Of a DNA stretch of 64,000 nucleotides, positions 8,009 to 29,142 are shown in pieces. How positions within the stretch are numbered: position 1 is the stretch's first letter; each line of letters starts with the position of its first letter. A program made the translations under genes and the position numbers. The stretch comes from Trypanosoma brucei (lineage: Eukaryota), in NCBI GenBank assembly GCA_000002445.1, contig CM000208.1:32001-96000 (forward strand). Direction: 5' to 3'. Under the pieces are notes generated by a model that made no database searches, had not been told where the DNA came from, and saw only the letters and a list, made by a program, of their open reading frames with translations.

Positions 8009-8067
8009 TTTTTTTTTTGGAATTTTCTTCGTGCCTTCGTGGGAGTTTCCCCCAACTGGCGCGGCCA

Positions 8068-9393
8068 TCAGCCATCACCGTAGAGCCATGAAATGCTATC
8101 GGTCTGGCGACTTTGGCAGAGTCTCCCTTTTTTATTCATCCTAACACACTCTCTATAATTTTTTGTTGTAGCTCCGCATTTGAACGGAATACAGCAGATG
8201 GGGCGAGAAGTCCCCACACCCCATACTCTCCCAAAGATGTCAATTAGCAATCCTTTTGTTTTGATTTTTGCTATTCGTTTATTATTCTCTCCCCCTCTTT
8301 CTGCGTCTCTTGCTTGTTGACTGCATATCCTCTCTGTCTCTGAGGTGCCTGGACTATTCCTGCGTCCGGAGCTTTTCCTGCTAGCTCCACACTCGGCAAT
8401 AAGGGGGGAAGTTGCACAAGGGAGAGTGGGTTGTATGACTGTTACCTTAGGTGAGGACTTCACCTGTGGCCGGCTCCGTTCAACCGCAATGAGAAACTGC
8501 GCCAGCCTTTTATAGAAACATACATCCTGCACACACACACCTTCCACCGCAAACCTGACACGTAACTCCTTCAAACCGGGACAGCTCATCAAGTGCAGCG
8601 ACGTTTCTTCGCAGTCTCCGCGTTGGCTGGTAACAGCTCCCTCTACCTTCATACCGTGCATCTTCTTTTGATGTAGGGTGAGGCCAGTTTTGCTAGCACA
8701 CTGCCTTCCGCATGTCGGGCACACCAACATGGATGTGCTTGTATGCGGGGAATCAGTGGCACACAATTTTGTGCTTTTGCTGCATTTAAGCTCGACTCCC
8801 TCACCTTTGTTAAGAGCCTTGCAGTGTCGGATGAGGGAGTCCCTGCAACTGAGCACTTTTTGGCACACACCACACTGCACCTCGCCTTCCCCTGGAGGCG
8901 TCAACGTTTCCCTCACGGGCACGCTTACGAGGAAATTGCACCACCACCACGGTACCGTCCTCCGTCACTATGCTCTTATGCTTGAATTTCTTGTGTAGTG
9001 ACAGGGAAGAGCGTGGACCGAAGCTCGCCTCGCACAGGTCACATTGAAACGGCAGCTTCCGTGTGTATCCTGAGAGGCTGGCGCTGCTGGGACGCTACCA
9101 TCTCCTTGCACTGAGTCCTCGCTCTCTCGCCCCCTTTTCACGCGGCAACTACCGCTGCCTATGCCATGTATTGTTCTAAGGTGGTATAGTAGTCGGCCTG
9201 GCACTGCGAATTTGGAGGCACAGAGGGTACAATGAAGCACCTGCGGTCTCATCGGGACTCGTGTGCTCGATGGTAGAGGAACGATCGCCACCACTGGAGG
9301 GGGCTCCGGGGGGATGTCCACTGCAGGTGTTGCATCGCCGTATTTGATCCTCCGGAGGGCATCAGCTCGCACAAAGCCATGTTTGTTTACCAT
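8068..9393 (-). CDS. ingi ORF fragments: C-terminal C2H2 zinc-finger region, as two ORFs (8968..9393 and 8068..8922) ending in the RIME-half-B-encoded tail.
   Basis: HCTLCASKFAVPGRLLYHLRTIHG; CGVCQKVLSCRDSLIRHC; CPTCGRQCASKTGLTLHQKKMHG; terminal ..LIDIFGRVWGVG..SISWLYGDG is typical of the RIME/ingi 3-prime end. Confidence 0.7.
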
Positions 9394-9511
9394 GTGCGTT
9401 ACAGCACTCGAGCGGCATTGGTATGTGGCATCACATTCCGTACATTTGGTCGGTTCGGAGGTTCTCTGAAGAGTGCGTGTCGCAACAGTTGGGCTGTTTG
9501 TATTGTTGGTC

Positions 9512-10207
9512 CTATCGCTGCATGTTGCGGGTTACACCATCGGCACTGTGAGGGCACACACTCGGGTTGATCTTTCGCAACATCCATCCATAGTGTCTTG
9601 AAGACCCAACCCGAAAGCGTGCCAGTGCCGTTTCTTCTTCCCTCGTCAGTTCTTCCTTATGTTTTGTTGGAAAGTGGTTGCCCGTGATACCAAACCTATG
9701 AGTGTTCTCATGGACTTCTTCCGACCTAAGCACTCGCTTCGCATAAGCAATGATGTCGGGGATCCATGTGTCTCGCAACTGTGGTAAATCTGCGGCCTTT
9801 TTGGCCATTTCATCGCAAACCTCATTCCGTTTCACGCCACAATGGCCGAACACAAATTGCAGTCGGATACGCACCTTCCTTCTCTGAACTTGAAGCAGAA
9901 GCCTCCATAGTCGTCTTAGAATTGGGTCCGTTACGGCTAGGGGGCCTGTCTGCAGTGCTGTTAACATTGACAGCGAGTCAGAGAAGATGGACAACCTGCT
10001 CGGTGTGCTTCTGTATGCCGGAAGCCATTTCAGCAGCCGTTGCAGTCCTATCTCTAATGCTACGCATTCCGCTCTGTAACTGCATGAGAGTTCCCCTGCT
10101 CCAGTTTTGGGTGCACAAATCAGCGTGTTGTTTCTATAGAGCAGGGCAGCTGCTCCGGACTTCTCACCGAGGGACACGGATCCATCAGTCCACAATTCGT
10201 AGTGCAC
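9512..10207 (-). CDS. ingi ORF fragment: RNase H domain.
   Basis: 231-aa ORF with MHYELWTDGSV..YRAECVALEIGL..FVFGHCGVKRNEVCDEMAKKAA, the RNase H catalytic-motif pattern (D..E..D..H). Confidence 0.75.
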   Translation of the reverse strand: MHYELWTDGSVSLGEKSGAAALLYRNNTLICAPKTGAGELSCSYRAECVALEIGLQRLLKWLPAYRSTPSRLSIFSDSLSMLTALQTGPLAVTDPILRRLWRLLLQVQRRKVRIRLQFVFGHCGVKRNEVCDEMAKKAADLPQLRDTWIPDIIAYAKRVLRSEEVHENTHRFGITGNHFPTKHKEELTREEETALARFRVGSSRHYGWMLRKINPSVCPHSADGVTRNMQR

Positions 10208-11191
10208 TCATCGCGGTGGCTCCTTCCCCCTCCGTGCAAAATGCCGTGCAATCCACTTTTCGGAAGCCTCCCTTTTGACATCGTCAGGGTCATCAGCGCA
10301 CACAGGCTTTATCCGCGTGTGAAATAGCGGTCGGCAGCTGTGGCGGAGCGTCGATGTCTCTAGTGGGTGCTCGCGTGGCTCAATGCGGAGGTGGGGGTAA
10401 GACCGCATGATGCGGGAATGTATGGCTCTGACAGGGTGTTTGCTGTGGTATACTTCTTCAGCACTGCGCCGCAAACATCCGCCTTGCGACTCACACATCA
10501 GCATGAATTTCATGCTGCGCACAAGAGTGGCCGTCTTGAGTGGCAGGAGGTTTGCTTCCAGCAGAGAGTCCTCTTTGCGCGTCCCATGCGGTATGCCAGC
10601 TATGATGCGACTGGCTTTGTGTTGTGCTGATGCAAGGAGGTCGCGACTTCGTTCCGAAGCGTCCCAGTACCATACCTCAATGCCATACATGGTGTGTGCC
10701 TGTACGATTACTAGATAAAAAGCTCTCAGTACTTGTCGTCTTGGCCCCCATGTAGAAGCTGAGATGGCTGCTATCTGCAGTAGTCGGAAGTCCATCTTGC
10801 GTCTCGTTTCGGCCGCATGTGTTGCCATCCCATGCAGACGCTGGGATGTTACTCCTAGAAGCTTCGGTGTCCTGTCAGCTCCTATTCTTTCACCGTCCAG
10901 TTGTAATGTAAGGGGGTGGCGCTCTATACACCCGGAGAGTGTGCACTTCGTTTTCGCTACATTGACAGACATGAAGTACTCTTTTGACCACTGTAACACC
11001 ACGTTTAGGCCGCATTGCAGTGTGTGGTTGATGACATCCCTCTCTGTGTGCCTCGCAAGTAGCGTCAGGTCGTCTGCAAAGAATCCGTGCTGCAGTAACG
11101 GCACTTCTGCAAGGCGTTGGCTCAACGAGTTCATGACAATAATGAACATGATTGGGCCAAGGACAGTTTCCCTGTGGCACTCCTCGCTCAA
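10208..11191 (-). CDS. ingi ORF fragment: C-terminal part of the reverse transcriptase domain, in a different frame from the upstream fragment.
   Basis: 327-aa ORF with FFADDLTLLARH (YxDD-like RT motif context) and thumb-like region. It overlaps the end of the 822-aa fragment, which implies a frameshift. Confidence 0.7.
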   Translation of the reverse strand: MSEECHRETVLGPIMFIIVMNSLSQRLAEVPLLQHGFFADDLTLLARHTERDVINHTLQCGLNVVLQWSKEYFMSVNVAKTKCTLSGCIERHPLTLQLDGERIGADRTPKLLGVTSQRLHGMATHAAETRRKMDFRLLQIAAISASTWGPRRQVLRAFYLVIVQAHTMYGIEVWYWDASERSRDLLASAQHKASRIIAGIPHGTRKEDSLLEANLLPLKTATLVRSMKFMLMCESQGGCLRRSAEEVYHSKHPVRAIHSRIMRSYPHLRIEPREHPLETSTLRHSCRPLFHTRIKPVCADDPDDVKREASEKWIARHFARRGKEPPR

Positions 11192-13267
11192 ATGTTCTGC
11201 TTCTGGAAAGCTTCTCCTTGAATCTCACTCTGCCAGTTCGGTTACTCAGAAATGATACGCACCACTTCACAATGTGGGGTGATACCTTCATTCTGTGCAT
11301 TTTCCTCGCAATTTTGTCGTAGTCTACTGTATCAAATGCCTTCTCGTAGTCAACGAATACAGCACCCGTACGAGATTGGTGTGTGGGACGGCAGAGGGCA
11401 GCGCGGACGTGCAGCAGTTGTTCGAGCGTTGAGCATCCGGGGCGAAAACCTGATTGCTGCGGCGTCAGCTGTGACTCAACAGTGTCTCTAAGTCTCGCGG
11501 CAATTATGCGCTCCATGACTTTGCAGAGACAGCTCGTGAGTGTCACAGGCCTGTGAGAATCGAGGTCCTCCACCCTTTTTCCGGCCTTCAGGATGGGGGT
11601 GATAACACCAGTCTTCCATGCAGGCGGCACGACTCCCGTTCGTAGGCTCTCATTGAATAGCCTCAGCACAACATTCAGCGCTGTTCTACCGAGATGTTGC
11701 AGTGCCTCGTTGTATAAGCAATCAGGTCCTGCTGCGGATCCACTCGGTAGCAGTTTGATCGATCTCCGTAGTTCAGCCATCGTGATGGGACTGAACTCAC
11801 TCGCTATCGTCTTTATTGGTGCCGGTGGGTGTGAGTCGGGGTGCCTTCTTGCGCGGGACGAGTACAGTTTACTGAACCTCTCAGCTTGAAGGTAGTCCGT
11901 GATGGCCGCGTTATCAACAAGTACAGCCGGTGTGGTTAGTGGTCGTGGCGCATATACCTTCTTGACAATGTGCCAACTGCAGCGGTCTGACACCGCAAGT
12001 CTGGAGCATAGCGTGCTCCATCTCTTCTTTGTGGTACGGTCCAGGATCTGCTTACGCGTGGCTACCAACTTTTCCCTTCGGTGGGAGGGTCCGCATCCAG
12101 CGATCTCTTCATCGAGTTTCGCGAGCTCAGGTGTCCAATGTGGTGGCGTTGCTCTGCAGCCACGGGGGACGGAGACCTTCGTCGCAATGCGGATGGCGGA
12201 GCTCAATTTCTGTTCCAGGGTGTTGACGTTCTTCTCTCTACCAATTTTCCTGCAGAGCTCGTCAACCTTGAGACGGAAATTCCTCCAGTCAGCTTTTAGC
12301 CATGCGTACATGGGCTTTCGAAGCCGCGGGCAACTCAGTGCATCTGTGTCGTCTCCAACGATAACGTCGAAAAATATGTGATGGTGATCGCTATCGGGAG
12401 AATACAGCGATGTCCACGTGTACACTGTGCAATTCCTTGACAGTGTCACATCAGGGGTGGACTCCCCGTGGTGGCGCGCGTTCCTGGTGCACTCACCAGT
12501 GTTGCAGACCAGAAACTGGTTGTCAATGCACCACTGTGTGAGGGTTTCACCCTTGGTATTTGGTGGGCTCGCGCGATCCCATGCCAACGCGTGTGCGTTA
12601 GCGTCTGCACCGATGAGCTGGGCACCGTCAGTCGTCAGAAGCGTATCTACGTCAGTTGCCGTGAAGGTGTGTTTTGGTGGGATGTATGCCGACGTGGCGG
12701 TCAGCGCCGTTCCACGTGCAAGGTGAATTGTTGCATGCACTTGTTCAATGCAACCAACAACGGCCATACCGGTCTCGACTGGTAGGTCCTCCCTCACTAG
12801 TATTGATACACCACCTCCTTTGCAGTTACGAGCTATTCCATGATGCTGGTAGCCAGCAACGCTAAAGCAAGCCGACTCTCCAGGCGTCATCCTTGTCTCG
12901 CTCAACAGACAAAAGGCGATCCGCTCATCAACAAGGGTTTTGTGGAGTGCTAATCTCTTTCCTTGAGATAGTCCGGCGCAGTTCCACTGCATCCCGCGCA
13001 ACGACGGGCCGGGATTCTCTTCCACATCACCGGACAGCAGCATCTTAGTGCGGATGATACTGCTGATGGCACGCTGGCACGTGCCCAGGGACCGACAAAT
13101 GAAAAACGGTGTCCCAGCAAGACGCTGCTGATCCCTGTGCTGTATGATGCCGTAGCCGGAGCAAAGCAGTGTTCCCCATGAAAGGAATGCTGCTGGCTCT
13201 TGGCTTCCCCCGATGATACGGGGCACTGGTCCCTGGCACCACGTTGAGGTGGCAGGCATCGCCAGGG
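10890..13267 (-). CDS. ingi ORF fragment: N-terminal RIME-encoded segment, 2A-like peptide (DVEENPGP), apurinic/apyrimidinic endonuclease domain and N-terminal part of reverse transcriptase (degenerate). The track ORF runs on to 13358 into flanking DNA.
   Basis: 822-aa ORF containing MLLSGDVEENPGP, then MQWNCAGLSQGKRLALH..LLSETR (APE-like), then RT region ..FRPGCSTLEQLL..AVFVDYEKAFDTVDYD. Confidence 0.8.
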
Positions 13268-13399
13268 TGCAAACATTGTATGTCACCCACCGCATTCCCC
13301 CCGTCAAATGTATCGCACAATCATGCAGAAGCTCTTCGCTGTCGAAGTAGAAAGACAAAGAGAACCGCTACCACCAGTCACCCTAACTTTCTCCCCCAT

Positions 13400-16369
13400 T
13401 TTTTTTCTTCCATACAACACTGTCATCGGACGTGCATGCCGATTCCTAGGACGGCGTTCAGCTTGAATTGTGTAAGAAATGGATTGTAAGGCACTACCGT
13501 GCAAAGGGAACCCAACTAAATTCCATGCCGCATTTTGAAGTATGAGCAGACGGATATGTTTCCTTAGGAATAAAATCAGGGGCTTCCTCAACGACATATA
13601 GGAATGACAATCCCATCTCGACGGTTTGCTGTGGAGCCGGAACAATAGCGTGTAGCTACCAACCTGAGTGCATAGTAATGTTCGAGGTTTTGCATAAAAT
13701 GATAAACATATTAAAACCGAAGGGAGCTCATCCGTGTAAAATGTCTCTTTCTACTGACCGGCGGTCGCTGTTCGAGGCACTGCGAATGGGAGAAACAGCG
13801 GTAAAGGCAGGAATTTTTCGGCGGACTTGGATAGTACTCTTGGGTATCGGATATCATAACACCAGCATCTACCTTCAGCTTGTGTTTGATCATTGTAGTG
13901 TAGAAAAGAATGAATTGACGGACAAAAAAGCGAGGGCATCTGCCAACGTTCCTCAACAAGACGTTGGGTGAATACCCGACATCACTGCCTTGGAAAAGTG
14001 ACACCTCATGGCGAGCAGAGAGAAACTGAAGACACACAGGTTGGAAATGACCGGTGAATGGCAACCAACTAAAGAAGATTTGCCACTAAACCGATAGAGC
14101 AGGTGCAGTCGCCAATTCCGCATTGGGACATCGAATACATATGGATAGTTGCTGCTGAGGATAGACAAAACAGTTCCTGACAAGTGCAGATGGTGTGAAA
14201 CCCATCCCTGCGCACACTGCGGGAAATTAAATTCCGATAGAGCTCACATAGTGTTTCATACGAACCGAATTCACAGTGTACCCTACCATGAGGCATTGCG
14301 CCGGTTGAAACGTGCTGCACACCCTGGTAATGCTGGCCACATCAAGGTGGTGTCAGGGTCCAGTGCCCCGTATCATCGGGGGAAGCCAAGAGCCAGCAGC
14401 GTTCTTCTTATGGGGAACACTGCTTTGCTTCGGCTACAGCGTCATAGAGCACAGGGATCAGCAGCGTCTTTCTGGGACAGCGTCTTTTATTTGTCGGTCC
14501 CTGGGCACGTGGCAAGCGTGCCATCAGCAGTATCACCCGCACATGCTGCAGAACTTGGGGTGTTGCCTGAAATATCACCCTATAACCCCCGCCCCCCACC
14601 GAAGTCGCATGTTCTCATTGTCTGTAACAAATCCTATGGAAACAAAGGAGGGCTCACATTGCACAAAACTCGATGCCTTCACGGCAAAACGAGAAAGTTA
14701 GACGATGAAATGTCGGAGCAACGGAAAGATGATGAAAATATCAAAGAGCACAAATGGGTTTGCGCAGAACGTGGCTTTCAATCCAAGAGTGCAGGTGTAC
14801 TAACATTGCGCAGGCCACAGAAACACCCCATGACCAACGACAGTCCCTTTCCACCCCACACTGGCGGAACCATAATCCACACTGAATATGATAAAAAACA
14901 CACTCCAGTGAGAAATCTGTGGGTTCAAATTGATTTAGCAAAAAGGTTCGACAATACGTCATGGAATAAAGAGCAGAGGTCAGCTTTAGCACATCATTCC
15001 AGTGGTGGAGAAACGGATAGGCACACAAAGTGAAAACCGACCGCATCAACCCAACACCAATGAACAAAGTGATAACACCACCAGTTCAACCCCTGGAGAA
15101 AATGAAGCGATATATGGACCTCGCAGCTATATATTTCACACGTAAATTGGACTAGTGATAAGTCACGGGATGAAATACTGCGAAGTACAACCGCAAACGG
15201 GGTCGCGAGGAATAAAAAGGCAACGGGAACTCGAGGAGAATGCAAGTATTCCAACGAAGGGCTCCCGAGCGACGGAAACGAGAGGGCATCCAGTGAACGA
15301 CCCAGTAGGCACATCTGAGCCGCTACAATGCACGCAATGTGGCCTTGTATCACAATCAAAAGGGGGAACAACACCAAACACCAAGATTCAACACCGCAGA
15401 GGCCATCCCCTGGATAGTAACGCTGGTACAAAACGGAGCCGTTCCATCACAGAACAAGAGGTATCCCTCATTTGGAACACGCTAACTATAGGTGTAAATG
15501 ACGCCTGTTGCACGCAATGCCGTCATACGCATGTATCAAAAGACAGCCTGATGGAGCACTTCGGGGGAATGCATAGACAGCATCCCTTCTCCGTAGCAAA
15601 AGAATCTCCACCACCGCTCCAGAGCTTCAACGTCAGAGGGTTTCATCTACACTTCACGTTCGTGAACCGAAATAAGACGTCCCACTCAACATCAGGTTCA
15701 TCCGTACATCGCCATCAAAAACATGAAATCTGCGTTGAAAGGAAACATACACACTCCAACGAATGCGAAGAGAATCCCACCCACATACTCGTGCGCTCAA
15801 GCCTAAAGTGCTCTGCAGTTACTTCGGGCTTGAGGGCGAAAATATGCAGAAGATAGTGTTCACCAAGAACCTTGCACAATTCCTCCTAGAAATTGAGAAA
15901 CCCCTCATTCTCTTCCAACATGTACTTTCTTCCTCGTGGAGGAACACTCCACTCAAGGAGAGACTAAACACAATGGTGTGCCCAGCATTGGTAAAAACTG
16001 TAAACTCCCCACTACTCCTCCACATTTGGATCGTAAAAATATATGTAGAAGTCTTGAGCCCTCCAGCACGGTGTCAGAGCCACCGCAGGATTGAGAATTA
16101 AAAGTTCAGTAACGCCTACTTGTCCCTTACAATTAGTTCCAACCTAACCTATACAAATCATCAATAACACAAATATAGTTTTATCTAACACAGATAGTAA
16201 TAAATTAATAGCACACTCACAACAGAGCACCATATAAAGGAAAATGTTACATAAAGTTTTTAGCTCCCTTGAGATGCCGTGGCATCACCAGAGGGCTCTC
16301 CAAATAAACCACCGCTATCTTGATAACGGCACTCAGCGTTGCTGGTAGTTACTGCTAAACAAAAAAAAA
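13400..16369 (+). mobile_element. Composite degenerate ingi-related element (DIRE-like) on the plus strand. It comprises an RNase H-like fragment (13678-13971), a C2H2-finger fragment (14149-14320), a diverged RIME-half-A-like segment (14322-14560), further C2H2 fingers (14600-15860), and a degenerate 3-prime tail with (A)9 at 16361-16369.
   Basis: 13678..13971 ORF: YLQLVFDHCSVEKNELTDKKARASA vs ingi RLQFVFGHCGVKRNEVCDEMAKKAA. 14149 ORF: CRWCETHPCAHCGKLNSDRAHIVFHTNRIH. 14322ff: ccctggtaatgctggccacatcaaggtggtgtcagggtccagtgccccgtatcatcggggg resembles the RIME start. CNKSYGNKGGLTLHKTRCLHG matches ingi CASKTGLTLHQKKMHG. Boundaries are approximate. Confidence 0.5.
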
Positions 16370-16528
16370 TATTGATATCACATTCATTATTCATCTTAAC
16401 AAAACAAATTCATATGATATTATTTATACACTCACATATTAAAAAATTAAACAATATGCACACGTATACATGCACAAACCATAAAGAAAAAAGTCGGTAC
16501 ACAACAATGTTGGTAACGTACCAATAAA

Positions 16529-17891
16529 CTAAAACATACAAATAAGAGATAAAATTAATAATGTAAACCCCCCAGTTTCCATATTCAAATGAGTAAGTCC
16601 ATCATTATTTACATCAGTATCATCACCTTCACCGTCACCTTCGCTTTTACCTCGGCTACTCTTCCATAGCTCTGCATCACCACCAAGTTTCACTTCAAGA
16701 AATATTTCCTCTGCCTCATGTTGGTACTCTTCCAACTCATGAAGATGGCTGTCAGCTTCTTTGGCATACTTCGCCATTTCTTGTAGTTCCTTGGTGGCGT
16801 TAGTGAGGCGGTTGTACCAAGGAATTCCACCATTTTCAAGTGTGTGATTGTAACTGACGCATGTAAACCCAGCAGTGTGACCTGTGCATGTGCGATTATC
16901 GTTATGTTCTGTTTTCACATAACGAAGGATACCTTTCACCCGATGTCCGCGCTGTTCCAAATTTACTAAAGCATCAAACTGATCTAATGCACTCTTCAAG
17001 GTTTTCGCATTAGATGCAATATTCTTGTACATGCAAGCTTTACTAATCACATCCCATGCCTCAGTATGGTTGTATTTTATATTTTCAGGCTTGCAGGTAT
17101 TATAGTTGCTCGGACAATACTCAGCCATCATAGTCCAACTACCATTTTTAGGTCTCCTAATTTCATCCTTACAAGGACAGTTATATCCACTGTATATGTT
17201 TTCACTACTTGAGCCAGTATCCATTTGATATGTATTTTTCTTTCTTAACAATATCAATAGCCTCTCCCACACATAAACAGAAGAATTCATTAATTAGCGT
17301 CTTTCCAACTTGTCTCCATAAGAACCGCAGCTCGTGGCCGCGCTGTAGACACTATTAACAGCAGTGATTTGTTTCCTTTCATGGCTTCCTCCAGAGTTTA
17401 CTCTCATTTCTTGCCACATCCACAGCGTCGATATATACAGCTCTCGGCAAATTTCCTTCAGCAGAGCGCCTTGCATTTAAGGCTTTTGTCCTATTCACTT
17501 CTATTCCTTCCTTCAGCTTTTTCGCCTTTTCAAGTAGTTGCTTCATCTCCTGATATGCTGTCGTGCTGTTAGATGAATTGCTCGAGCCCTTATTGACACC
17601 AACAGCTTCTGCCTCACTGACCATTTCCTCCAAATTCTTCAGAATCTCTCCTTCCTTCTCACGATTCTTAAAGGAGGGTTGTGGGGCCTCTGCTTGCGTG
17701 ATTCGGTAAATCCTGCACAGTGTCTCGAATTCACCAACGTTGTGGTGCTTTTCTTCTTGATGGACATTATCCCTGATCGCCCTCCAATCAATCAACTCGG
17801 GGGTCCACTTGAAAGACCACATATCACCCTGAGAGGAAGGAGATAAGACAGCCGCAAGCAACGCAATGGCAAACACTGTTTCGCGCCTCAT
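16529..17891 (-). pseudogene. Gene for a secreted, probably GPI-anchored surface glycoprotein of ~450 aa. It has an N-terminal signal peptide, a Cys-rich middle, an acidic linker and a C-terminal hydrophobic GPI-signal-like tail. An internal stop/frameshift between 17379 and 17290 disrupts it. Family unresolved (ESAG2/VSG-related-like?).
   Basis: 17379..17972 ORF contains MRRETVFAIALLAAVLSPSSQG (signal peptide). 16529..17290 ORF has CPCKDE..C..C..C motifs and ends ..GDGEGDDTDVNNDGLTHLNMETGGFTLLILSLICMF*. The two ORFs are in different frames. No VSG 3-prime UTR 16-mer was seen. Confidence 0.5.
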
Positions 17892-17958
17892 CGTGATTTT
17901 GCCTCTACATTCATTAGTCAAAGAGAGGGGCAAAAGCTTATCATTACAATAATTATTG

Positions 17959-19839
17959 TTATTGACAGACACACTCAGTAAACAAATACATCAATATATC
18001 GAAATTAATAAGTGCCTGACACAGACCAACTACAGTATCCAACAAAGCAGGAAGCACATCCCAATACACATATTTACATGGGTTCACCCTCCTAAGCTGC
18101 ATATTAACATTAAACACCCTCACAGCTGTTTTCCCATTGATTGTCTTACTCTTACATATATCTGCATACAATAAATCCACTTTCTTAAGCACCATGCTAG
18201 GTCCTCCAATTTTCCAACTGAGTTCCTCTTGCACTCTCTTGATTTCCTCAATAATAAGCTTATCCATTCTCCTATCGAGCACCTGCACTTTTATGTTAAA
18301 ATTATCCAAATCCTTCATTGGCTTTATTAACTTCGGCTGCTACCTTATTGCTTTATTCGCTAGTACATTGCGTGCTTAATTCGAATGCACGTGTTACCCT
18401 TATCCAATGCACACAACTCTGCTGCTGAGCCTCATTTAGCATATCATCCCTTCTTCATACATGTGCTGACAACACTCTTCGTTGTCCTCTCTGCGTGCAT
18501 GCACAGCTCCTTGCCTCCAATTTTCTTTAATCACACACTCTTAAATGTAACAGTTAAATTTTCAAAACACTTTCATTAGACACTTGTGCTTATTATTGAA
18601 ACCTTTCATAATACTGTGATATGATGGAATATTATGTTAGTTGCCAACATACAAAACAGTCCCAGAACAACAAGTGACCTTCCCCATCAGCATCCTCATT
18701 TATATTATTTGCGACATGCAAAATAATCACCATCCTCTCAGTTAACTCTTGCCATCCTCACACCATATGCAAAGAGCATTAACACACTCCACCACCCCAG
18801 AGGAAAAATAATGGAGGGGCAGCCTTATTTATCATCACTCACGATTAAAATAACTCAAAACAGAAACACTCCAACGAAAGATATTATAACCTACGACAAA
18901 CATGTAAGTACGCACATGCAAAGTTATGTATATTTATTATTATTATGATTATGGTGAGGAGGAGTTATTTCTATCAATGCACTTTCTCACAGTAATACAA
19001 CTAGTACTATTCACACTGCCAATAAGATTCGTGTCGAGTTGCAGTTAGGCAACATTGCTGTTTACTTCGCTAAAGCATGAGCAGTTAAAAAAAGTATTTG
19101 ACACAAGGTAAGGTAAACGGAAGACGATTTGGCAGCAACAGCTGAAAGCAATGAAGGAAGAAATGATGTCGTGTACTTCAACTAACAGAAAGAAAACATT
19201 TCCATTTCACCAAATTATTTAATTAATTTACAGAGCCGCCCATATATAAATTATCCTGTGGAATGAGGAAGCTGCTTATGCTGCCGCTGACACAATCCCA
19301 CAATGGACGATATTCACCATATTGGGATACGGGCTTACCTATTTAATATCACCCCATACCGTCCTAACCGTCTCCGCAATAACTTCCTAGTGCGTATTTG
19401 CTTTCACAACAGCATTCGATAATATATTGCTTACTTACCTGACACTTTCGTTAACTTCAGCAAACAACCCACCAACCTTGGCCACGAGGTCTCCCATTAT
19501 ATTTCCGTAAGATATAAGTTTTTCCAATTTCTCACTTTCCCCTCCCATTTCACTACTAACAACACTCAAATATTTAACATTTTCACCTGTTTTCCCTTCC
19601 AAGTCATCAAGTATACGAGACGCATTTGCATATACTTCCTCATTGACAAGTAGCTTCTGTTCGCCATCGGTGTATAATTTGTTTAATGCATCCGAAAGGC
19701 ACTTTATATAGCACACAGCCTCATCCAAATTTATGCCGTCGTGGTCATCTATCGATGTACAACGACCCTCCTCTGCCTCACCAAAGAAGGTCACATAAAA
19801 TAACAAAATAACTAATCCCAGAACCGTACCCTTCATCAC
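17959..19839 (-). pseudogene. Second secreted/surface-protein-like gene, fragmented. It has an N-terminal signal peptide (19435..19839 ORF), a C-terminal hydrophobic tail (17959..18318 ORF) and intervening frameshifts.
   Basis: MMKGTVLGLVILLFYVTFFGEAEEGRC.. (signal peptide, Cys-containing N-domain). Distal ORF ends ..LLDTVVGLCQALINFDILMYLFTECVCQ*. No continuous frame joins them. Confidence 0.35.
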
Positions 19840-20748: not shown

Positions 20749-22178
20749 TCAGGCAGCGGGGCCACCAGCAATAGCGTTTGGTTCATCCTGGGTGATCTCC
20801 CTAACAATATCCTTTTCCATCTTCACTTGAAACTGGTTGATTCTATTCCACAACTCTGTAGTATGACCGCCTCTGCCCCCAACTGGTTCGCACCTCCGCC
20901 TCTCCTTGATTGCTCTGCTGTCACTGTACTGTATGTAAACCAGCTCCCATTTCAAGTTTCTTGCGAGCTCATCCCATTCACGAAACAATTGTTTCATTCC
21001 CTTGATAAACTTATCTACCTTCGTTCGTGCCAGGTGATGCGTCGGTGCCACTGTCGTCTGGAGCAGAACAATTGTTGTTGCGGTGATCGCCCTTCCTTCT
21101 GTATCAACAGCTGGCTCAGTCACAAAGAAAAAGGCGTCCACAACGGGGAAATTTCCCTGTACAGGTCGGTGAAGGCACCCGACCTCGATGTCTTGGCCTC
21201 TCGTTTCGGGGTAAATATGACGAAGTGAAGTTGGAACACGTCCCACGGCATTACCACTTGCCAGAACGGATACATGTAAATGCATATTTTCTCCAATGCG
21301 AGGGAAATACCGCAGGTGCGCCACAATCGTCTGCACAACATTTCTCATCGTGAAGGCATATATGCCCACATTTTCAAATTCATCAGCGGCATGCTCTGCT
21401 TTCCCACGAAAAAAATTCCGAAGGTAATTGTCTTGCATACATGCTTTGTCCACCCACACTCTCAATTTCTGCTCAATATAAACGGAAACAGCTCTGTTTC
21501 TGCATTCTTCTCCATTCTCAGTTACAACCCGGACCAACTTAGCTAACATGTATGTAGTCCCGTCATGGAGCTATTGAACTCGGCCATTCAGCACCTCCAT
21601 GCACTGTTCGGTATCGCGAGCAGCGATTTTTCTCAGTGCCCCTTTTACTTCTGTGATTTGGTCACGATAGCGTTTGTCACCTTCCAGTACTTGGCGGGCC
21701 AGTGGGCCCACCTTCTTAGCCCATCCTAATATTTTCTTCCATTCATTCTCAACTTTTATGATGTGAGTTTCGGTGATTTTACTTGCCTCCAACTTTGACA
21801 GCCGCCTCCACGCAACCGCAGCCTTCAGTTCCACCTCTTCATAGCAATTGATGCAAAGGAACTCGTAACCCCGTGGTTCCTTCCACTTTCTGTAGTTATT
21901 TGGATCTGGAGATGTCAAGACAATTACGGGCCACGTTTCCGGAAAGTCTGTTGGTCTTGGTATTTTTCTCTCTTTCGCCAGGTCGCAAATAATGTAACCA
22001 AGAAGCCATTCGTCAGCCAAGGCATTGACAGCATCCACTCCATCATTTTCCTCATAGAATACAACCCTTCCCGGGTGACCATTTGTCGCCCTGAAGAAAA
22101 TATACGCCCCACCCTTCACAAAACAAGCGATAATCCGCAGCAGCTCCGAATCGTAATGCAGCAACCTTTGGAGCAGGA
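20749..22178 (-). pseudogene. RHS: RHS pseudogene copy 2, C-terminal half (downstream of the RIME insertion). An internal stop/frameshift lies near 21550-21571.
   Basis: 21571..22230 ORF ILLQRLLHYDSELLRIIACFVKGGAYIFFRATNGHPGRVVFYEEND.. and 20749..21549 ORF ..FPVVDAFFFVTEPAVDTEGRAI..WELVYIQYSDSRAIKERRRCEP are collinear with RHS copy 1 but sit in two frames. Confidence 0.75.
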
Positions 22179-22674
22179 TTTTTTTTTTCTTCGTGCCTTC
22201 GTGGGAGTTTCCCCCAACTGCCGCGGCCATCAGCCATCACCGTAGAGCCCTGAGATGCTATCGGTCTGGCGACTGTGGCAGAGTCTCCCTTTTTTATTAA
22301 ACCTAACACACTCTCTATAATTTTTGTTGTAGTTCCGCAGTTGAACGGGACACAGCAGATGGGGCGAGAAGCCCCCCTCACCCCGGACTCTCCCAAAGAT
22401 GTCAATTGGCAATCCTTTTTTTGGAGTTCCACATCACCGGACAGCAGCATCTTAGTGCGGATGATACTGCTGATGGCACGCTGTCACGTGCCCAGGGACC
22501 GACAAATGAAAGACGGTGTCCCAGCAAGACGCTGCTGATCCCTGTGCTGTATGATGCCGTAGCCGGAGCACAGCAGTGTTCCCCATGAAAGGAATGCTGC
22601 TGGCTCTTGGCTTCCCCCGATGATACGGGGCACTGGACCCTGGCACCATGTTGAGGTGGCCGGCATCGCCAGGG
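22179..22674 (-). mobile_element. RIME: RIME (ribosomal mobile element; ingi half-A + half-B, ~496 bp incl. (A)10), inserted in RHS copy 2 with a perfect 12-bp target-site duplication tttggagcagga.
   Basis: Reverse complement of CCCTGGCGATGCCGGCCACCTCAACATGGTGCCAGGG..MLLSGDVELQKKDCQLTSL..GATGGCTGATGGCCGCGGCAGTTGGGGGAAACTCCCACGAAGGCACGAAG(A)10. The 12-mer tttggagcagga occurs at 22167-22178 and at 22675-22686. Confidence 0.85.
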
Positions 22675-23735
22675 TTTGGAGCAGGAACGAGCCAACACCA
22701 ACTGATTTCCCAATACCTGCAGTGCCGACGAGGACGCAAGGAATCTGTTTTTCGATCAGCCCTCACTCCAGCCACAAATCCAGCCTCTGCTTCACAAGAT
22801 ACCACACTCTCATTACCTCTCGACGAATGTGCACATCTCGGTCAAACACATGGACCTTTGGATTTTCCTCACCCTCTTGAATTACTCTTCGCGGAATGCG
22901 GAACCGGTTATATGGCCAACCCTTGTGCGAGGTGAGCACCGCAATCTCTAAATTACCACGTCGAGGAAGAGGTTCATTCATAGTTCCCGGGCCGTGGCTG
23001 ACATCCACCACTCTTTCCGTCCACAGCTCAGGTTCTCGACCACAATTTCTCACCACCTTCATCATAACCCGACATCACATAACTCCACGTCGCATTGTAT
23101 ATGGATTCATACACTCCTTTAAGTTCGGCACCACCAGCTGTTAGGGCAGCTCGTATCATTGCTTTTTTGACGGCCATCAATGCTGCATCCAGTTTTCTCC
23201 TCACTACGGGACCAACAAATTCCCTTATCTGAGTGGTTGCATTCTCTTCCCATTGTTGTATGTCTTCAATTCCATTACGAGGCAGATAAATAACCGCCCT
23301 CAGTAATTGAAACTCATCGATATCCTGTATTTCTCCAAGAATCCCTGTATCAACAATATAATCCTCCCGGATTCTTAACAAACACATTCAGGGCCACATT
23401 CTCTGTGTTGTACGTGTTCGAAAACTTTTGCATCAAAAATTCATGCAGTTTCATATCCTTCAAACCCGCATAGCGTTCCAGTAACACATCTTCCACGCTA
23501 CTTTCCAACACCCATTTGCGACAATTGGTTTCCTTCCCCGTAAAGTACAGTGGGACTGCAACGGAAGATATTCCGATGAGTACTCCAGAGAGGCAGAGTT
23601 ACGGTGAGAGGAGAAAAGAAATATGGTCTTGTACCATACCGTCTCAGGGATCCACAAAGTGGAAGTGCAAAACAGCGTTTGGAAAACATCATCAACAGAA
23701 TTGATAGCCTTAGACTTAAAAATAAATAAAAACAA
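22675..23735 (-). pseudogene. RHS: RHS pseudogene copy 2, N-terminal half including the P-loop (GTAGIGKS) just upstream of the insertion hot spot. It is spread over three frames.
   Basis: Translation of the minus strand next to the RIME gives ..LIEKQIPCVLVGTAGIGKSVGVGSFLLQT. Upstream ORFs 22763..23065, 23028..23387 and 23460..23735 are collinear but out of frame with each other. Confidence 0.6.
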
Positions 23736-26700
23736 GAGTTGTATAAGGTATAATAATAATATGATACTGCGTCGTCAAGTATCATTCGAAGAGATGCATG
23801 CACATGACTAGCCTTTGAAAGTCAACAACACAGTTTATCCACAGTGCTAATAGATTTCACTCACTGCACCAAGCAAAGATACAAACAGTTGAATCAAAGT
23901 AACAAGAACACATTATATATCATATCAATATAGGATTAAATGTGTAAGGGCATCCAACCACATACGCGATACGTAAATGTGATAGCAACCACTACACATA
24001 CCGTAACTAAACTGCTGCGCAAGAATATACTTTATTCTTAATGAATATCCAGTCTCATATGACAGTTACTCGACATACATGTAGACAATTTCTTTTAAAT
24101 AGAATCCACATATGATAAATGGATACAATCCCCTTGAACAGTGTTGGAGATGTATTAATGGTAACATGACTCAAAGGGAACGCAGTACAATAACGGTCCG
24201 CGTACTTTCCATAGGATTCACATATCATACCCAGTGTAATTATAATGAGATACAAATCACATACACCGACACACATATATTGAAGAACTTTAGTGGAAGA
24301 GTAACTCAATCACAAGTCACGATTAATCAAAACAGTAAACACAACATAAAATGCAGTAAAGAATGTGTGAGTAAAGGAAAATATACAAATTATCGGACAG
24401 CAACACACATATATATGAAATATGAGTAGAACAATTCATGTAAATATACAGCAAGATCAACAACAGCATAATCTACGGCATTACAACAATTGTTGTATTT
24501 TCATTGTCGGCTGAATGAAGTAACTAACTGCAGAAAAAAAACCCACATACACCTATGTTGCTGTGAGGAGCAGCTGTGATAAAGGTCTGGTGAGAACTGT
24601 TGCTCGATCACTTCTGCGCCCCACATGTGCAGGGTAATGTTGCTGCGGCTTTCTACTATTATTAATGCATTTGTTCTTACCTTCATACGTATCAGCAAGC
24701 TCTGGAATTTTAAAAGAACTGCGGGACATAAATGGTTTGTGGTTTCTCTTTGTCCAAAATTTTAATGATAGAAAATGAAAAATACTGTGAGTGATGTTAA
24801 ATACAAACAAAATTGCGTTACTCTCCTTGTTAATATCAACGGTACACAAGGACATACCCTGTTACTCTCATGACGATCCATGAAGTAAGAAAAGTGTCTT
24901 TCATTATAACAAAGCGGAAAGAAAACTGAAAAAGAGAGATAAGTTCCCAAATATTTCCCACATGTTCGCCTTTCTTCCTATAGAAGAGCAACTAACTGAA
25001 GCAACACATGAATTTCTAAAATAGAAGTATATACCTTTTTTCCAGTTGCAGCGTGAGTTTGCAGCACACACACTCACTCACCACCACCGACATGTTTTTA
25101 CGCGCTCTCTACGCTCACATTACACAACCAACTGAAAGCATTAATATTCAAAAAAGGAAGCCTATCACTATTGTATGAATTTTACGCCCTCTGATGATGC
25201 TGATGATAAGGATTAACCGAGGCAGATGTATTCCCAAGTCCCTTCCTCCACTCCGTTATTTAAGAAATTCCGATATTCTAAAATAACAAAACACAACAAA
25301 AAGGTGCAACAGTACCAACGTACGCACACCAGTCGAACACTCTCCTTTAGAAGACCATATGCACGCTCCCTCATACTTTCATTCTCTTGGAAAGTCATGT
25401 CCCATCTAGAAAAGCAAAAATAAAGAGAATCATTACTGATTAGATTAATCATGCAAGTAGTAATATCCGTCCAAATTCATTCATCAATGAAAGACAATAT
25501 CTGAAGTACAGCAGTGTAAGTGGATCGTGCAAACAAAAACAATTACCCATATTTTGCTCCGTCATTGAATCTTTGTGATAGAGAACGCCGATGGTAGAAT
25601 AAAGGAGACACTATTAATGTGATGGGGTTATGCATGCGCCACTCCGACTGTTCACAAATAAATGCAAATATCACAGTCTCAATATTTTCCAAATATACCC
25701 AACAAATAGGAAGCAAGTATTTTCTAGAATATGTGAAATACACGTCACCGCATCCACAATATAATAAGCGAAGATGAGACTCCATTTTCAAAAGCAAACA
25801 TACAATCATGACAATACCGAGCACCATTTCCCTCGTGTATCCAAAAGACTCTGATACATAAGAGAGCAATTCATAAAAGATGTTTAGAATAATATGGGGA
25901 AGTAGGAAATAATGATCGGTGCTTCTGGTACTCAGCCTAACAGAAATGAATATGATTGACGCAAATTATGTATTTTCTTTTTTTTTTAAGATGGAAAAGA
26001 TAAACTGAAATGGGAGCAAACATGCAGGATGGTAATTTTCCAACGGGTTGAAGCACAAGCTCTCTTTGTATCAACAGTTTGTGCTCAACATTTTTTACTC
26101 AGTGCACTTTTTTTTTTTTACGTGCATGCTTTAGTGAGACTTCATTCAATCATCCAGCTGAAACGCGGAACACTCCCAAGCCAATCATCCAACACTTCTC
26201 TGATGTGTTTTTTCTCCATTTCCTCTTGCCTAATTGCTAGAACTCAGCTTTCCGTGACTTCTGTTGGAAATACCACCTCATTCCTACTGTTTGAAACCGC
26301 AGTCACGTCACCAGAAAAAGAAATCTTTAGTTTTATTTCCAAGTCCCGCTATGACGTTTTCAGCTTAGGAAGGCGACTACCTCTTCTCCATCTGAATTCG
26401 CGTATTCTGTGCGGTAAGAATCTTGCACTTTGGCACCTAGTTATAAAAAAAAATCCATTTTTTAATCGGATGCTCGGTCAGTACATTCGGTTTCTAACAT
26501 AACAGATCCACTGCCACAGCCCCATGTATCTCTCACTCCACACTTTGGACCCTCGACGTTATGCAGCGCCGAAAGCGCTCGGGTCACTCCATCATCACAC
26601 AATCCCCCTGAAGAAGAGGACATCACAGGCGTTTCGTTTCCTCATTGACGGCATGACGGGTCTCGAGACCACATCGACGTGACCTGTGGAGTCAGAACTC

Positions 26701-28643
26701 AAAGAGGGTACGTTGAACTAATTCACCTTTTTTTTTTCTGTTATGGGCGGCTGTCTTTACAGAACTCTTATCGATCGACTTTACAATGCACTAGAAGAGA
26801 AAGTGTGTGCGGAATCACGTGTTTTGCTACTATGACGGTGGGTCAACCCTCAACAACAAATGCTTTTCGGGCCATGAAGTTCCATTGGCATGCAAATGCC
26901 TGCAGAGGTCTTGTTTGCCCTGTGGAAGCTTCGTGACCAAATAAATGTCACAGACTCCAGAGCCCACAAATGCGCACGTATTGCACCTGCTTATGCTACA
27001 CCACTTTTTCCATTTGACCCCATTACGAACTTCTTTCGTCCGCAAGCAAAAGTCTCATCCGTAAATGAAACCAAGCAACCGACGTAGCTACGCACCACAT
27101 CGTGGTGTGGTGTTGTCCTTTAACGCCTCCAGGAGCGGAAAGATGCCCCACCGCAGTTTTGCTCATGCACAAATACCCTTAGGCGACGATGCGGAGGGGA
27201 TCCCGGTTCTATTTCCACCATGAACTCGCACGGGACAGGTTGGTACTCCTGCATCTGTTGTTGTTAGCAGAGAGGATAACCTCCAGTCCGTTATGCCGGA
27301 CAAAGTTCGTCACCACTCTCCAGCCAAACGGTCCCCGCTCCGGCTTACTCAAAGATGACGATACAATGAGGAAAACCAACGGTGGTGGCGTGCCAGACTC
27401 TGGTGCGTGTCAACCTCCCGGTAGAAACCGGAGAAGAAGAGGGAGGAGAAGTGGCGGCGTGAAAGCCTCACTGCCAATACGTCAGAGGAAGCTAAACCGA
27501 CATTAGCGATGGTGTATTTTTCTAGAAGGGCGAAACCACTCTAAAGTGCGGGTTGCCTGCCATTGGTGTTGGAGCATCAAAACCGTTCTTCCTCTCACAT
27601 GGATCCTTTCTTGAGCATGGCAAGCCGAAGTCGTCGAGTGACCGCCTATGCGGCATCCGTCAACGACGCGCACATATATTTCGGCGAATCTCCCACATCC
27701 CTGTAATGGGACAGTTCGCACATATTTCTGCCTATTCCGCAGCAAATCCATGACCGAAGAAAGCATGATGGCTTTGATTGCGGCGAAACGTGTGGCTACG
27801 GTTGCGCGGTTGTAGTACACCAGCATGTTTACGGCAATGATGAAGTTGGATCAACGACTGTTGGACGTGATGATCTTGTGCCTACAGAAGATTGTGGCGA
27901 TAAGCGAGATCAAACACGCAAGTCCCTTGACAAAAGGTCGGAATGGCTCAGATTATTACTTTTCGTCCGGATTGGAAGGAGTGTGTGGTTTTTGCGTTTG
28001 GTGTGGATTACGACAAGTCGTCGGGTGGAGATCCCGGCACCGATACGGAAGCATTTCCAATGGAACAGGGACAGTGTAGCGCTCCTCGATTGGTTGGTGA
28101 CACCCAAGACAGCCAAGTCCAATTCACACCGAGCAGGTCGTTAAGTTCGCATTCGGGGATTAGGACGCTCTCGATATTACGCGACTACTCTCCACTATGA
28201 AGCTCAAGGAACGTATAACAACGCTCACAACAACCAAAGTCGAACGTATTCGGGCTTCATGGGAGATGATGACGCACCCCGTTAGAAGAAGGAGTTTTAC
28301 AGCATGCTACAGCCACAATTTGTGGAAGAGCACAGCATGGATCCTCACATTATTCCCCAACCGATTGAGCACATTTATCTGTTCCACTTGCCGAGGAACA
28401 CTGTCAGCCGCTTGGACAAATACACCGCCATGTTGACTAATATGTAGAATATCGTCTCTATGATGTAACCCATGTCTTAGATGAAGGATAAGAGCCATGG
28501 GAGCCGCCAGGGCGGTGTCCCTTCAAGACGCACGGTTACACGATAACAAGGAGGGCGCACGCCACACGCCTGTTGAATACTCAGGACAAGGCTTCCATTC
28601 CTTTACAGCAAGTGCACGTCCCACTGCTGGAGATATATTGAAT

Positions 28644-29142
28644 CCCTGGCGATGCCGGCCACCTCAACGTGGTGCCAGGGTCCAGTGCCCCGTATCATCG
28701 GGGAAAGCAAGAGCCAGCAGCATTCCTTTCATGGGGAACACTGCTGTGCTCCGGCTACGGCATCATACAGCAGAGGGATCAGCAGCGTCTTGCTGGGACA
28801 CCGTCTTTCATTTGTCGGTCCCTGGGCACGTGCCAGCGTGCCATCAGCAGTATCATCCGCACTAAGATGCTGCTGTCCGGTGATGTGGAACTCCAAAAAA
28901 GGATTGCCAATTGACATTTTTGGGAGAGTCCGGGGTGGGGGGCTTCTTGCCCCATCTGCTGTATTCCGTTCAACTGCGGAGCTACAACAAAAATTATAGA
29001 GAGTGTGTTAGGTTTAATAAAAAAGGGAGACTCTGCCACAGTCGCCAGACCGATAGCATCTCAGGGCTCTACGGTGATGGCTGATGGCCGCGGCAGTTGG
29101 GGGAAACTCCCACGAAGGCACGAAGAAAATTCCAAAAAAAAA
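28644..29142 (+). mobile_element. RIME: Intact RIME (~499 bp incl. (A)10 tail at 29134-29143) flanked by an 11-bp TSD atatattgaat (28633-28643 and 29143-29153), in a non-RHS context.
   Basis: Begins CCCTGGCGATGCCGGCCACCTCAACGTGGTGCCAGGGTCCAGTGCCCCGTATCATCGGGG. The half-A/half-B junction is ..ATGCTGCTGTCCGGTGATGTGGAACTCCAAAAAAGGATTGCCAATTGACATTTTTGGGAG. Ends ..GGGAAACTCCCACGAAGGCACGAAGAAAATTCC(A)10. The flanking direct repeat is identical on both sides. Confidence 0.9.

What the first reader, a model, noticed from the sequence alone, without database searches (positions are those of the whole stretch)
16529..19839. Two tandem pseudogenes for secreted/GPI-type surface proteins wedged between retroelements; family unassigned
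Gene B (17891 to 16529) has a clear signal peptide (MRRETVFAIALLAAVLSPSSQG), a Cys-rich domain, an acidic GDGEGDD linker and a C-terminal hydrophobic tail. This is the architecture of GPI-anchored trypanosome surface proteins (~450 aa). It is split by a stop/frameshift. Gene A (19839 to 17959) likewise has a signal peptide and a hydrophobic C-terminus but is more decayed. No VSG 3-prime-UTR 16-mer is present. A short 70-bp-repeat-like motif sits immediately 5-prime of gene B: ..taataagtgcctgacacagacc.. / aataacaataattattgtaatgataag on the minus strand, 17905-17960. They may be ESAG2-like/VSG-related or an undescribed surface family.
Basis: partly seen in the sequence, partly recalled or inferred. 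Interest (0 to 1): 0.5.

Follow-up and report, generated by a model that had tools for sequence, protein, structure and literature searches.

The report
Dead ESAG1 and ESAG2 gene copies
The two "unassigned" surface-protein relics are decayed, non-telomeric copies of two well-known Trypanosoma brucei families, ESAG1 and ESAG2 (GRESAGs), in a retroelement-rich chromosome-end region; this is ordinary for this genome.

Summary
Gene B (17891→16529, minus strand) is real. It belongs to the ESAG2/GRESAG2 family, which derives from b-type VSG. It matches Pfam VSG_B and is collinear over 100% of its length with 12 annotated ESAG2 proteins (E down to 6e-223, 59–75% identity). It keeps the signal peptide, all 11 conserved cysteines and the family's GPI-signal tail. 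Four deletions (1, 1, 4 and 11 nt) disable it. It is a recombination mosaic: the 5′ 350 nt are ~99% identical to a T. b. gambiense chr 1 ESAG2, and the central ~540 nt are 100% identical to the published, frameshifted GRESAG 2.1.

Gene A is an ESAG1 pseudogene, but it covers only 19836→~18950. It carries multiple stops and a 56-codon deletion, which the chr 1 paralogue shares. The remaining ~1 kb down to 17959 is spacer. Its 119-aa ORF is annotated "hypothetical protein, unlikely" in paralogous loci.

The VSG 16-mer is indeed absent. The "70-bp-repeat-like" motif is not distinguishable from chance (E = 29); that stretch holds the polypyrimidine tract and AG upstream of gene B.

There are no telomere repeats, 70-bp repeats or VSG, and housekeeping genes start ~16 kb away. 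These are therefore non-expression-site copies, already known as a class. Interest is low.

The parts
18950..19839 (-). ESAG1-family pseudogene ('gene A' proper; ATG at 19836, GTG at 19839).
   Evidence: Pfam ESAG1 PF03238 scores 3.3e-18 for ORF 19435-19839 and 9.7e-37 for the stitched reading. tblastn with the 328-aa ESAG1 P0019 (itself PF03238, 7.8e-110) aligns aa 1-164 at 63% identity to 19836-19342. In-frame stops lie at 19437, 19389 and 19341. Residues ~165-220 are deleted. Only weak similarity (28-39%) continues to ~19000.
17949..18949 (-). Spacer between the two pseudogenes, including a 119-aa ORF (17959-18318). It is not part of ESAG1.
   Evidence: There is no ESAG1 similarity and no Pfam hit. 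The ORF's only homologues are two proteins named 'hypothetical protein, unlikely' on chr 1 of T. b. gambiense DAL972 and TREU927, at 78-79% identity. Substitutions against the chr 1 copy fall 12/15/7 on codon positions 1/2/3, so there is no sign of purifying selection.
17892..17948 (-). Conserved 5' leader of gene B: a polypyrimidine tract (cttttgcccctctcttt) followed by AG, ~20 nt before the ATG.
   Evidence: Homology to the GRESAG 2.1 locus (L001) starts at 17948. The 70-bp-repeat HMM gives E = 29 here. Reading it as a trans-splice acceptor is an inference from the general architecture of trypanosome splice sites.
16529..17891 (-). ESAG2/GRESAG2-family pseudogene ('gene B').
   Evidence: Pfam VSG_B scores 4.5e-12 and 2.3e-6 on the two ORF halves. 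There are 16 homologues, 15 of them source-named ESAG/ESAG2/GRESAG2; the best is E = 6e-223, 75% identity, 100% coverage. All 11 conserved Cys, the signal peptide and the GPI-type tail are retained, and the gene clusters with non-BES copies. Relative to an intact paralogue there are four deletions, at ~17400 (1 nt), ~17357 (1 nt), ~17311 (4 nt) and ~17216 (11 nt).
16860..17400 (-). Gene-conversion tract 100% identical to the procyclin-locus GRESAG 2.1 (Q03849/L001). It includes the shared 4-nt and 11-nt deletions and the TAA stop.
   Evidence: Alignment A1. Sliding identity and maximum chi-square of 159, with 0 of 1000 permutations reaching it. L001 equals the TREU927 chr 6 GRESAG2 (P0008) outside this tract only.
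17535..17891 (-). 5' segment of gene B, 95-100% identical to the T. b. gambiense chr 1 ESAG2 (P0001).
15715..16528 (-). 3' flank of gene B, still part of the segment duplicated on T. b. gambiense chr 1.
   Evidence: L003 8788-12618 matches window 19539-15715 at 86% over 3856 nt.
13267..16039 (.). Segment shared at 94% with a T. b. gambiense chr 3 ESAG2-ESAG11-ESAG1 cluster. It contains a RIME half at 14313-14549.
8012..13268 (-). Full-length ingi retrotransposon downstream of the pair.
   Evidence: RIME halves at both ends. Pfam RVT_1, Exo_endo_phos and RNase_H hits.
20749..22677 (-). RHS pseudogene fragments with an inserted RIME (22185-22677), upstream of the pair.
   Evidence: Pfam RHSP 1.5e-29 and 5.6e-77. 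RIME matches.

Best explanation
The interval holds two non-functional, non-expression-site copies ('GRESAG' relics) of known Trypanosoma brucei families. An ESAG1 pseudogene (19836→~18950) is followed, after ~1 kb of spacer, by an ESAG2/GRESAG2 pseudogene (17891→16529).

They lie in the RHS/ingi-rich region next to the first housekeeping gene cluster of a chromosome end. By gene content this looks like the left end of chr 10.

The pair is one copy of a ~3.8-kb segmental duplication that is also present inside chr 1. ESAG1 was already dead before that duplication, because both copies share the same internal deletion.

The ESAG2 copy was then reshaped by patchwise gene conversion with other family members and disabled by four small deletions.

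Neither copy can make a full-length protein. Their most likely remaining activity is passive, as sequence donors and recipients in the frequent recombination among non-ES ESAG copies. The tract shared with the procyclin-locus GRESAG 2.1 shows this.

Shown: family membership, the lesions, the duplication and the mosaicism.
Inferred: the direction of conversion, the lack of expression and the chromosome assignment.
For: Family membership:
- Pfam VSG_B and ESAG1 hits.
- Full-length collinear ESAG2 hits.
- An ESAG1 hit with P0019.

Lesions.

Retention of family hallmarks and clustering with chromosome-internal copies rather than the BES clade.

Segmental duplication:
- L003 (T. b. gambiense DAL972 chr 1, FN554964.1 290-310 kb) matches window 19539-15715 at 86%.
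- Both copies have the same 54-nt gap replacing ESAG1 aa 165-220.

Mosaicism:
- Maximum chi-square 159, with 0/1000 permutations reaching it.
- A 100%-identical ~540-nt tract shared with GRESAG 2.1.

Not an expression site:
- No 70-bp repeats, no 16-mer, no telomere repeats.
- Housekeeping genes (CBF5, ATP synthase gamma, S6e, GAA1, proteasome, PEX14, MCU, PUF) run from ~36 kb.

Literature:
- T. brucei has 21 non-ES ESAG1-like and 18 non-ES ESAG2-like copies, with significant recombination among the non-ES copies (PMC3605285, Table 2).
- ESAG2 is a GPI-anchored cell-body surface protein (PMC11298655).
Against: - The strain and assembly of the window could not be identified. The two private 1-nt deletions (one in an A-run) could therefore be assembly errors. 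Even so, the 4-nt and 11-nt deletions and the intervening TAA occur in two independent short-read assemblies whose product matches the UniProt entry Q03849 exactly, so the pseudogene call stands.
- Expression was not tested. A truncated signal-peptide-bearing N-terminal product (~170-194 aa) cannot be excluded.
- The sequences compared for mosaicism come from three different genomes. Donor and recipient are inferred, not shown.
- SignalP and GPI predictors were not available.
Confidence: 0.93

Rival explanations
1. Gene B is a b-type VSG pseudogene from a silent VSG array, not an ESAG2-family gene.
For: The only Pfam family hit is VSG_B. ESAG2 is itself derived from b-type VSG (PMC3605285).
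Against: All 16 homologues are ESAG2/GRESAG2, collinear over the whole length including the ESAG2-specific C-terminus; no VSG is among them. There is no VSG C-terminal domain hit, no 3'-UTR 16-mer and no upstream 70-bp repeat.
Confidence: 0.02
2. The pair represents an undescribed surface-protein family.
For: None after the searches.
Against: Strong, full-length matches to two curated families.
Confidence: 0.01
3. Gene B is functional in vivo. The frameshifts are assembly errors, or they are bypassed, so that a GPI-anchored GRESAG2 is made.
For: The signal peptide, all 11 Cys and the GPI tail are perfectly preserved. Two of the four lesions are single-base deletions private to this window.
Against: The 4-nt and 11-nt deletions put ~95 nt out of frame, with a TAA in that stretch. 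They are found identically in independent assemblies encoding a product identical to UniProt Q03849. Good preservation elsewhere is explained by recent gene conversion from intact paralogues.
Confidence: 0.04
4. The interval is a remnant of a former bloodstream expression site (ESAG1 followed by a 70-bp repeat) into which an ESAG2/VSG-like gene was transposed.
For: ESAG1 is the last ESAG before the 70-bp repeats in a BES. A short (TAA)6 run follows the ESAG1 remnant at 18934-18952.
Against: The 70-bp HMM finds nothing significant anywhere in the window. The same ESAG1ψ-spacer-ESAG2 unit sits chromosome-internally on chr 1. Gene B clusters with non-ES copies.
Confidence: 0.03

Closest known systems
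GRESAG 2.1 of the procyclin GPEET/PAG3 (PARP A) transcription unit, chr 6. UniProt Q03849, named GRESAG 2.1 in the database. From my own knowledge its source is Berberof et al. 1991, which could not be read here.
   Same: Same family. The central ~540 nt are 100% identical, including the 4-nt and 11-nt deletions and the out-of-frame 'MNSSVYVWERLL…' ORF start. Overall 88% nt identity over 1.4 kb.
   Different: It is a different locus: the flanks do not match beyond 17948/16526. The 5' 500 nt are only ~42-90% identical. The window copy has two extra 1-nt deletions. No procyclin-locus homology was detected: the flanks of the GRESAG 2.1 contig L001 find no match in the window.
Chromosome-internal ESAG2 of T. 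b. gambiense DAL972 chr 1 (P0001, in L003), with its upstream ESAG1 remnant
   Same: Same ESAG1ψ-spacer-ESAG2 unit, 86% identical over 3.86 kb. The ESAG1 internal deletion is shared. The 119-aa 'unlikely' ORF is shared. The first 350 nt of ESAG2 are ~99% identical.
   Different: The chr 1 ESAG2 ORF is intact (457 aa). Its surroundings are housekeeping genes rather than RHS/ingi.
Bloodstream-expression-site ESAG2 and ESAG1 (e.g. Tb427.BES40.18; P0009-P0012, P0018)
   Same: Same two families, with the same signal peptide and GPI-tail design for ESAG2.
   Different: BES copies form a separate clade with an N-terminal 'EEAVDDECTR' insert, at 59-61% identity. The gene order ESAG2-ESAG11-ESAG1 was seen here in two chromosome-internal T. 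b. gambiense clusters (L005, L006), and from my own knowledge it is also the BES order. Here the order is ESAG1-ESAG2 and there is no ESAG11. There is no 70-bp array, VSG or telomere here.

Membership tests
ESAG2 / GRESAG2 (b-type-VSG-derived family) | VSG_B-type N-terminal domain (Pfam PF13206) | tested here: met
   46.3 bits (4.5e-12) and 27.6 bits (2.3e-6) on the two ORF halves. Both exceed the 25-bit cut-off.
ESAG2 / GRESAG2 (b-type-VSG-derived family) | Full-length collinear similarity to annotated ESAG2 proteins (~455 aa) | tested here: met
   12 hits cover 97-100% of the repaired 453-aa reading, at E 6e-223 to 3e-163; all 11 conserved Cys are present.
ESAG2 / GRESAG2 (b-type-VSG-derived family) | N-terminal signal peptide and C-terminal GPI-insertion signal | tested here: inconclusive
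   Both termini are conserved with the family and hydrophobic. 'VNNDGLTHLNMETGGFTLLILSLIC' is near-identical to intact members. The GPI signal of a BES ESAG2 works experimentally (PMC11298655). SignalP and PredGPI were not available.
ESAG2 / GRESAG2 (b-type-VSG-derived family) | Intact ORF (functional member) | tested here: not met
   Four frameshifting deletions and premature stops. It is therefore a pseudogene of the family.
ESAG sensu stricto (expression-site resident) | Location in a telomeric BES, upstream of 70-bp repeats, a VSG and telomere repeats | tested here: not met
   No 70-bp repeat, no 16-mer, no TTAGGG repeats. Core housekeeping genes lie in the same window. The gene clusters with non-ES copies.
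ESAG1 | Match to Pfam PF03238 and collinearity with ESAG1 proteins (~328 aa) | tested here: met
   (66 and 127 bits against a cut-off of 27); aa 1-164 at 63% identity. The second half is largely deleted or decayed.
ESAG1 | Intact ORF | tested here: not met
   There are at least 8 stops in the main frame and a ~56-codon deletion.
VSG | VSG C-terminal domain, 3'-UTR 16-mer and upstream 70-bp repeat | tested here: not met
   No Trypan_glycop_C hit. 16-mer absent. The 70-bp HMM is not significant.

The most novel reading that the evidence does not exclude
The dead ESAG2 copy acts as a live recombination donor. A ~540-nt tract carrying its two deletions and a stop codon was copied into the procyclin-locus GRESAG 2.1 in some T. 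brucei lineages (those whose GRESAG 2.1 matches Q03849, i.e. the contigs from ERR7929159 and ERR7929164). That inactivated a gene which is intact in TREU927 (P0008). The classic 251-aa 'GRESAG 2.1 protein' would then be an ORF artefact of a pseudogene-to-gene conversion. It would be a non-VSG example of pseudogene-driven mosaic formation in trypanosome surface-gene families.
Probability: 0.4. Interest if true: 0.3.

Novelty: already known. Interest (0 to 1): 0.12.

Why it matters
It matters little beyond annotation. It assigns two 'unassigned' relics to ESAG1 and ESAG2, corrects the extent of gene A, and removes a spurious 70-bp-repeat lead.

The one point of modest interest is the evidence for patchwise gene conversion among dispersed ESAG2 copies. 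One tract is shared, deletions included, with the procyclin-locus GRESAG 2.1. This illustrates how pseudogenes can inactivate or remodel paralogues in T. brucei surface-gene families, a process already reported statistically for non-ES ESAG copies (PMC3605285).

Tried and rejected
- Exact-protein look-ups of window ORFs failed: the gene B halves, the ESAG1 ORF and a nucleotidyltransferase ORF found nothing. Nor did the TREU927 proteins P0008 and P0024. The window's PEX14 matched only a 1.2-kb Logan contig. The strain and annotated locus IDs therefore could not be established.
- Berberof et al. 1991 (PMC369427) is not held. What that paper says about GRESAG 2.1 comes from my memory and from the UniProt name only.
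- 70-bp repeat hypothesis: I built an HMM from 40 repeats of Lister 427 BES1/BES4 (PMC4858185, S1 Dataset). There was no significant hit, so it is rejected.
- Rfam gathering scan of the whole window: no RNA genes.
- Tandem repeat scan of 15-21 kb: only trivial short repeats.
- The bacterial promoter/terminator scan is irrelevant for a trypanosome and was ignored.
- I considered that the 119-aa ORF might be the ESAG1 C-terminus or an ESAG11 remnant. It has no similarity to ESAG1, and the putative ESAG11 (by gene-order position) 367-aa protein of L005 finds nothing in the window.
- I considered that 14549-15715 is ingi. It has no nucleotide or protein similarity to the window's ingi beyond the RIME half and no Pfam hit.
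- Structure prediction was not run, because the sequence evidence is decisive.
Full report
**What is there**

The minus strand of 16529-19839 carries broken ORFs (sequence). ORF 19435-19839 begins gene A.

A Pfam scan gave VSG_B (PF13206) for both halves of gene B (27.6 and 46.3 bits). It gave ESAG1 (PF03238, 66 bits) for the gene A ORF.

**Gene B is an ESAG2-family pseudogene**

- A repaired 453-aa reading finds 16 proteins, 15 of them source-named ESAG, ESAG2 or GRESAG2, from T. brucei brucei, T. b. gambiense and T. equiperdum. Twelve cover 97-100% of the query at 59-75% identity, with E from 6e-223 to 3e-163.
- In a family alignment, gene B keeps the signal peptide (MRRETVFAIALLAAVLSPSSQG|D) and all 11 conserved cysteines.
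- It also keeps the family's C-terminus: an acidic linker, VNNDG, a polar spacer and a hydrophobic tail.
- It groups with chromosome-internal copies, not with the clade P0009-P0012, which are probably expression-site copies.
- ESAG2 is an experimentally localised GPI-anchored protein of the cell-body membrane, and its GPI signal functions on a reporter (PMC11298655). The family derives from b-type VSG (PMC3605285).

Nucleotide alignment with an intact paralogue (T. b. gambiense chr 1, P0001 in L003) shows four deletions. They are 1 nt at ~17400, 1 nt at ~17357, 4 nt at ~17311 and 11 nt at ~17216. The resulting stops lie at 17381-17379 and 17296-17294.

**Relation to GRESAG 2.1**

The 251-aa database protein 'GRESAG 2.1' (Q03849, P0013) is 92% identical to ORF 16529-17290. 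It starts with the same MNSSVYVWERLL… sequence. Relative to intact ESAG2, that start is an out-of-frame reading of …LINEFFCLCVGEAID….

A 3.7-kb contig carrying this gene (L001) matches the window only from 17948 to 16526, at 88%. It is therefore a different locus. The central ~540 nt are nevertheless 100% identical, and both sequences share the 4-nt and 11-nt deletions.

Outside that tract, L001 equals the intact TREU927 chr 6 GRESAG2 (P0008), at aa 1-182 and 362-454. The literature places GRESAG2.1 as the last gene of the chr 6 procyclin unit (PMC2731899). It also reports frameshifts in T. evansi copies (PMC4288722).

**Mosaicism**

Gene B's first ~350 nt are 95-100% identical to the gambiense chr 1 gene but only 42-90% identical to GRESAG 2.1. 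The pattern is the reverse in the centre. On 254 informative sites the maximum chi-square is 159, and 0 of 1000 permutations reach it. This fits the published finding that non-ES ESAG1 and ESAG2 copies (21 and 18 per genome) recombine significantly (PMC3605285, Table 2).

**Gene A is an ESAG1 pseudogene, but shorter than claimed**

- A library-wide HMMER search gave a 328-aa protein, P0019. It is a full ESAG1 by Pfam (7.8e-110).
- tblastn maps its aa 1-164 to 19836-19342 at 63% identity, with in-frame stops at 19437, 19389 and 19341.
- Residues ~165-220 are missing: only 54 nt remain for that stretch.
- The rest is barely recognisable and ends near 19000-18950.
- Intact ESAG1 has no hydrophobic C-terminal tail.

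The ~1 kb between 18950 and 17949 is spacer. Its 119-aa ORF has only two homologues, both named 'hypothetical protein, unlikely', on chr 1 of DAL972 and TREU927. Substitutions fall 12/15/7 on codon positions 1/2/3, which gives no evidence of coding constraint.

**Origin**

The DAL972 chr 1 locus (L003, FN554964.1 290-310 kb) matches window 19539-15715 at 86% over 3.86 kb. The match covers the ESAG1 remnant, the spacer, the 'unlikely' ORF, ESAG2 and 0.8 kb of 3' flank. It shares the same ESAG1 internal deletion. ESAG1 was therefore already dead when the unit was duplicated.

Two other gambiense loci (L005 on chr 3 and L006 on chr 11) have the BES-like order ESAG2-ESAG11-ESAG1. L005 also shares window 16039-13267 at 94%. 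The window has no ESAG11 remnant. The region is a patchwork of segments exchanged among dispersed ESAG clusters.

**Context**

- Minus strand, going from upstream to downstream of the pair: RHS pseudogene fragments (20749-22230) with a RIME at 22185-22677; the two pseudogenes; a RIME half (14313-14549); a complete ingi (8012-13268); and another RHS (6669-8078).
- Plus strand, from ~36 kb: housekeeping genes follow, namely a nucleotidyltransferase, CBF5, ATP synthase gamma, S6e, GAA1, proteasome alpha subunits, PEX14, MCU and a PUF protein. From my knowledge of TREU927 numbering (e.g. PEX14 = Tb927.10.240), this is the left end of chr 10. That is an inference, not a tested result.
- There are no telomere repeats, no Rfam RNAs and no VSG 16-mer.

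**The 70-bp claim**

I built a profile HMM from 40 authentic 70-bp repeats (PMC4858185, S1 Dataset). The site 17936-17978 scores 1.4 bits, E = 29. The best site anywhere in the window has E = 0.54. The stretch just upstream of the ATG is a polypyrimidine run followed by AG. It is conserved in the GRESAG 2.1 locus. It is most simply read as the trans-splice acceptor region, which is an inference.

**Verdict**

These are ordinary decayed members of two long-known families in a typical T. brucei chromosome-end landscape. Gene A's family and extent, and the 70-bp motif, needed correction.

The shared conversion tract with GRESAG 2.1 is the only mildly noteworthy by-product. I could not establish the strain, the locus IDs or expression. 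I also could not read the original GRESAG 2.1 paper.

Noticed in passing
window 16860-17400 vs L001 1436-1990 (GRESAG 2.1 contig, Logan ERR7929159): The published 251-aa 'GRESAG 2.1' ORF (Q03849) begins out of frame. In this lineage the chr 6 gene equals the intact TREU927 GRESAG2 (P0008) at both ends. Its central ~540 nt, with a 4-nt and an 11-nt deletion and a TAA, are identical to the window's pseudogene. This suggests that a pseudogene-to-gene conversion inactivated GRESAG 2.1 in some strains.
   Followed up: partly
window 17959-18318 (-): A 119-aa ORF is preserved, with only 3-nt indels, in the paralogous chr 1 loci of DAL972 and TREU927, where it is annotated 'hypothetical protein, unlikely'. 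The codon-position pattern of substitutions (12/15/7) gives no sign of coding constraint.
   Followed up: yes
window 13267-16039; L005 15723-18499: A 2.8-kb non-coding-looking segment with an embedded RIME half (14313-14549) is 94% identical to sequence downstream of an ESAG2-ESAG11-ESAG1 cluster near the left end of T. b. gambiense chr 3. The ORFs in it (14149-15033 and 15155-15856, + strand, with C2H2-like CxxC…H motifs) have no Pfam match and no similarity to the neighbouring ingi.
   Followed up: partly
L006 5895-13777 (T. b. gambiense chr 11, 3.83 Mb): A chromosome-internal cluster laid out like an expression site: two Trypan_glycop (ESAG6/7- or PAG-like) genes, two VSG_B/ESAG2 genes, a 368-aa ESAG11-like gene and an ESAG1 fragment. 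It lies next to housekeeping helicase genes.
   Followed up: no
window ~26000-35700: ORF-poor stretch containing a RIME (28641-29140). The cumulative GC skew has its minimum here. Coding orientation changes from minus (RHS/ESAG side) to plus (housekeeping side), consistent with a divergent strand-switch region.
   Followed up: no
window 8012-13268 and 6669-8078 (-): A full-length ingi (endonuclease, RT, RNase H and C2H2 parts in several broken ORFs) lies immediately upstream of an RHS P-loop ORF on the same strand. This is the classic retrotransposon-hot-spot arrangement.
   Followed up: partly
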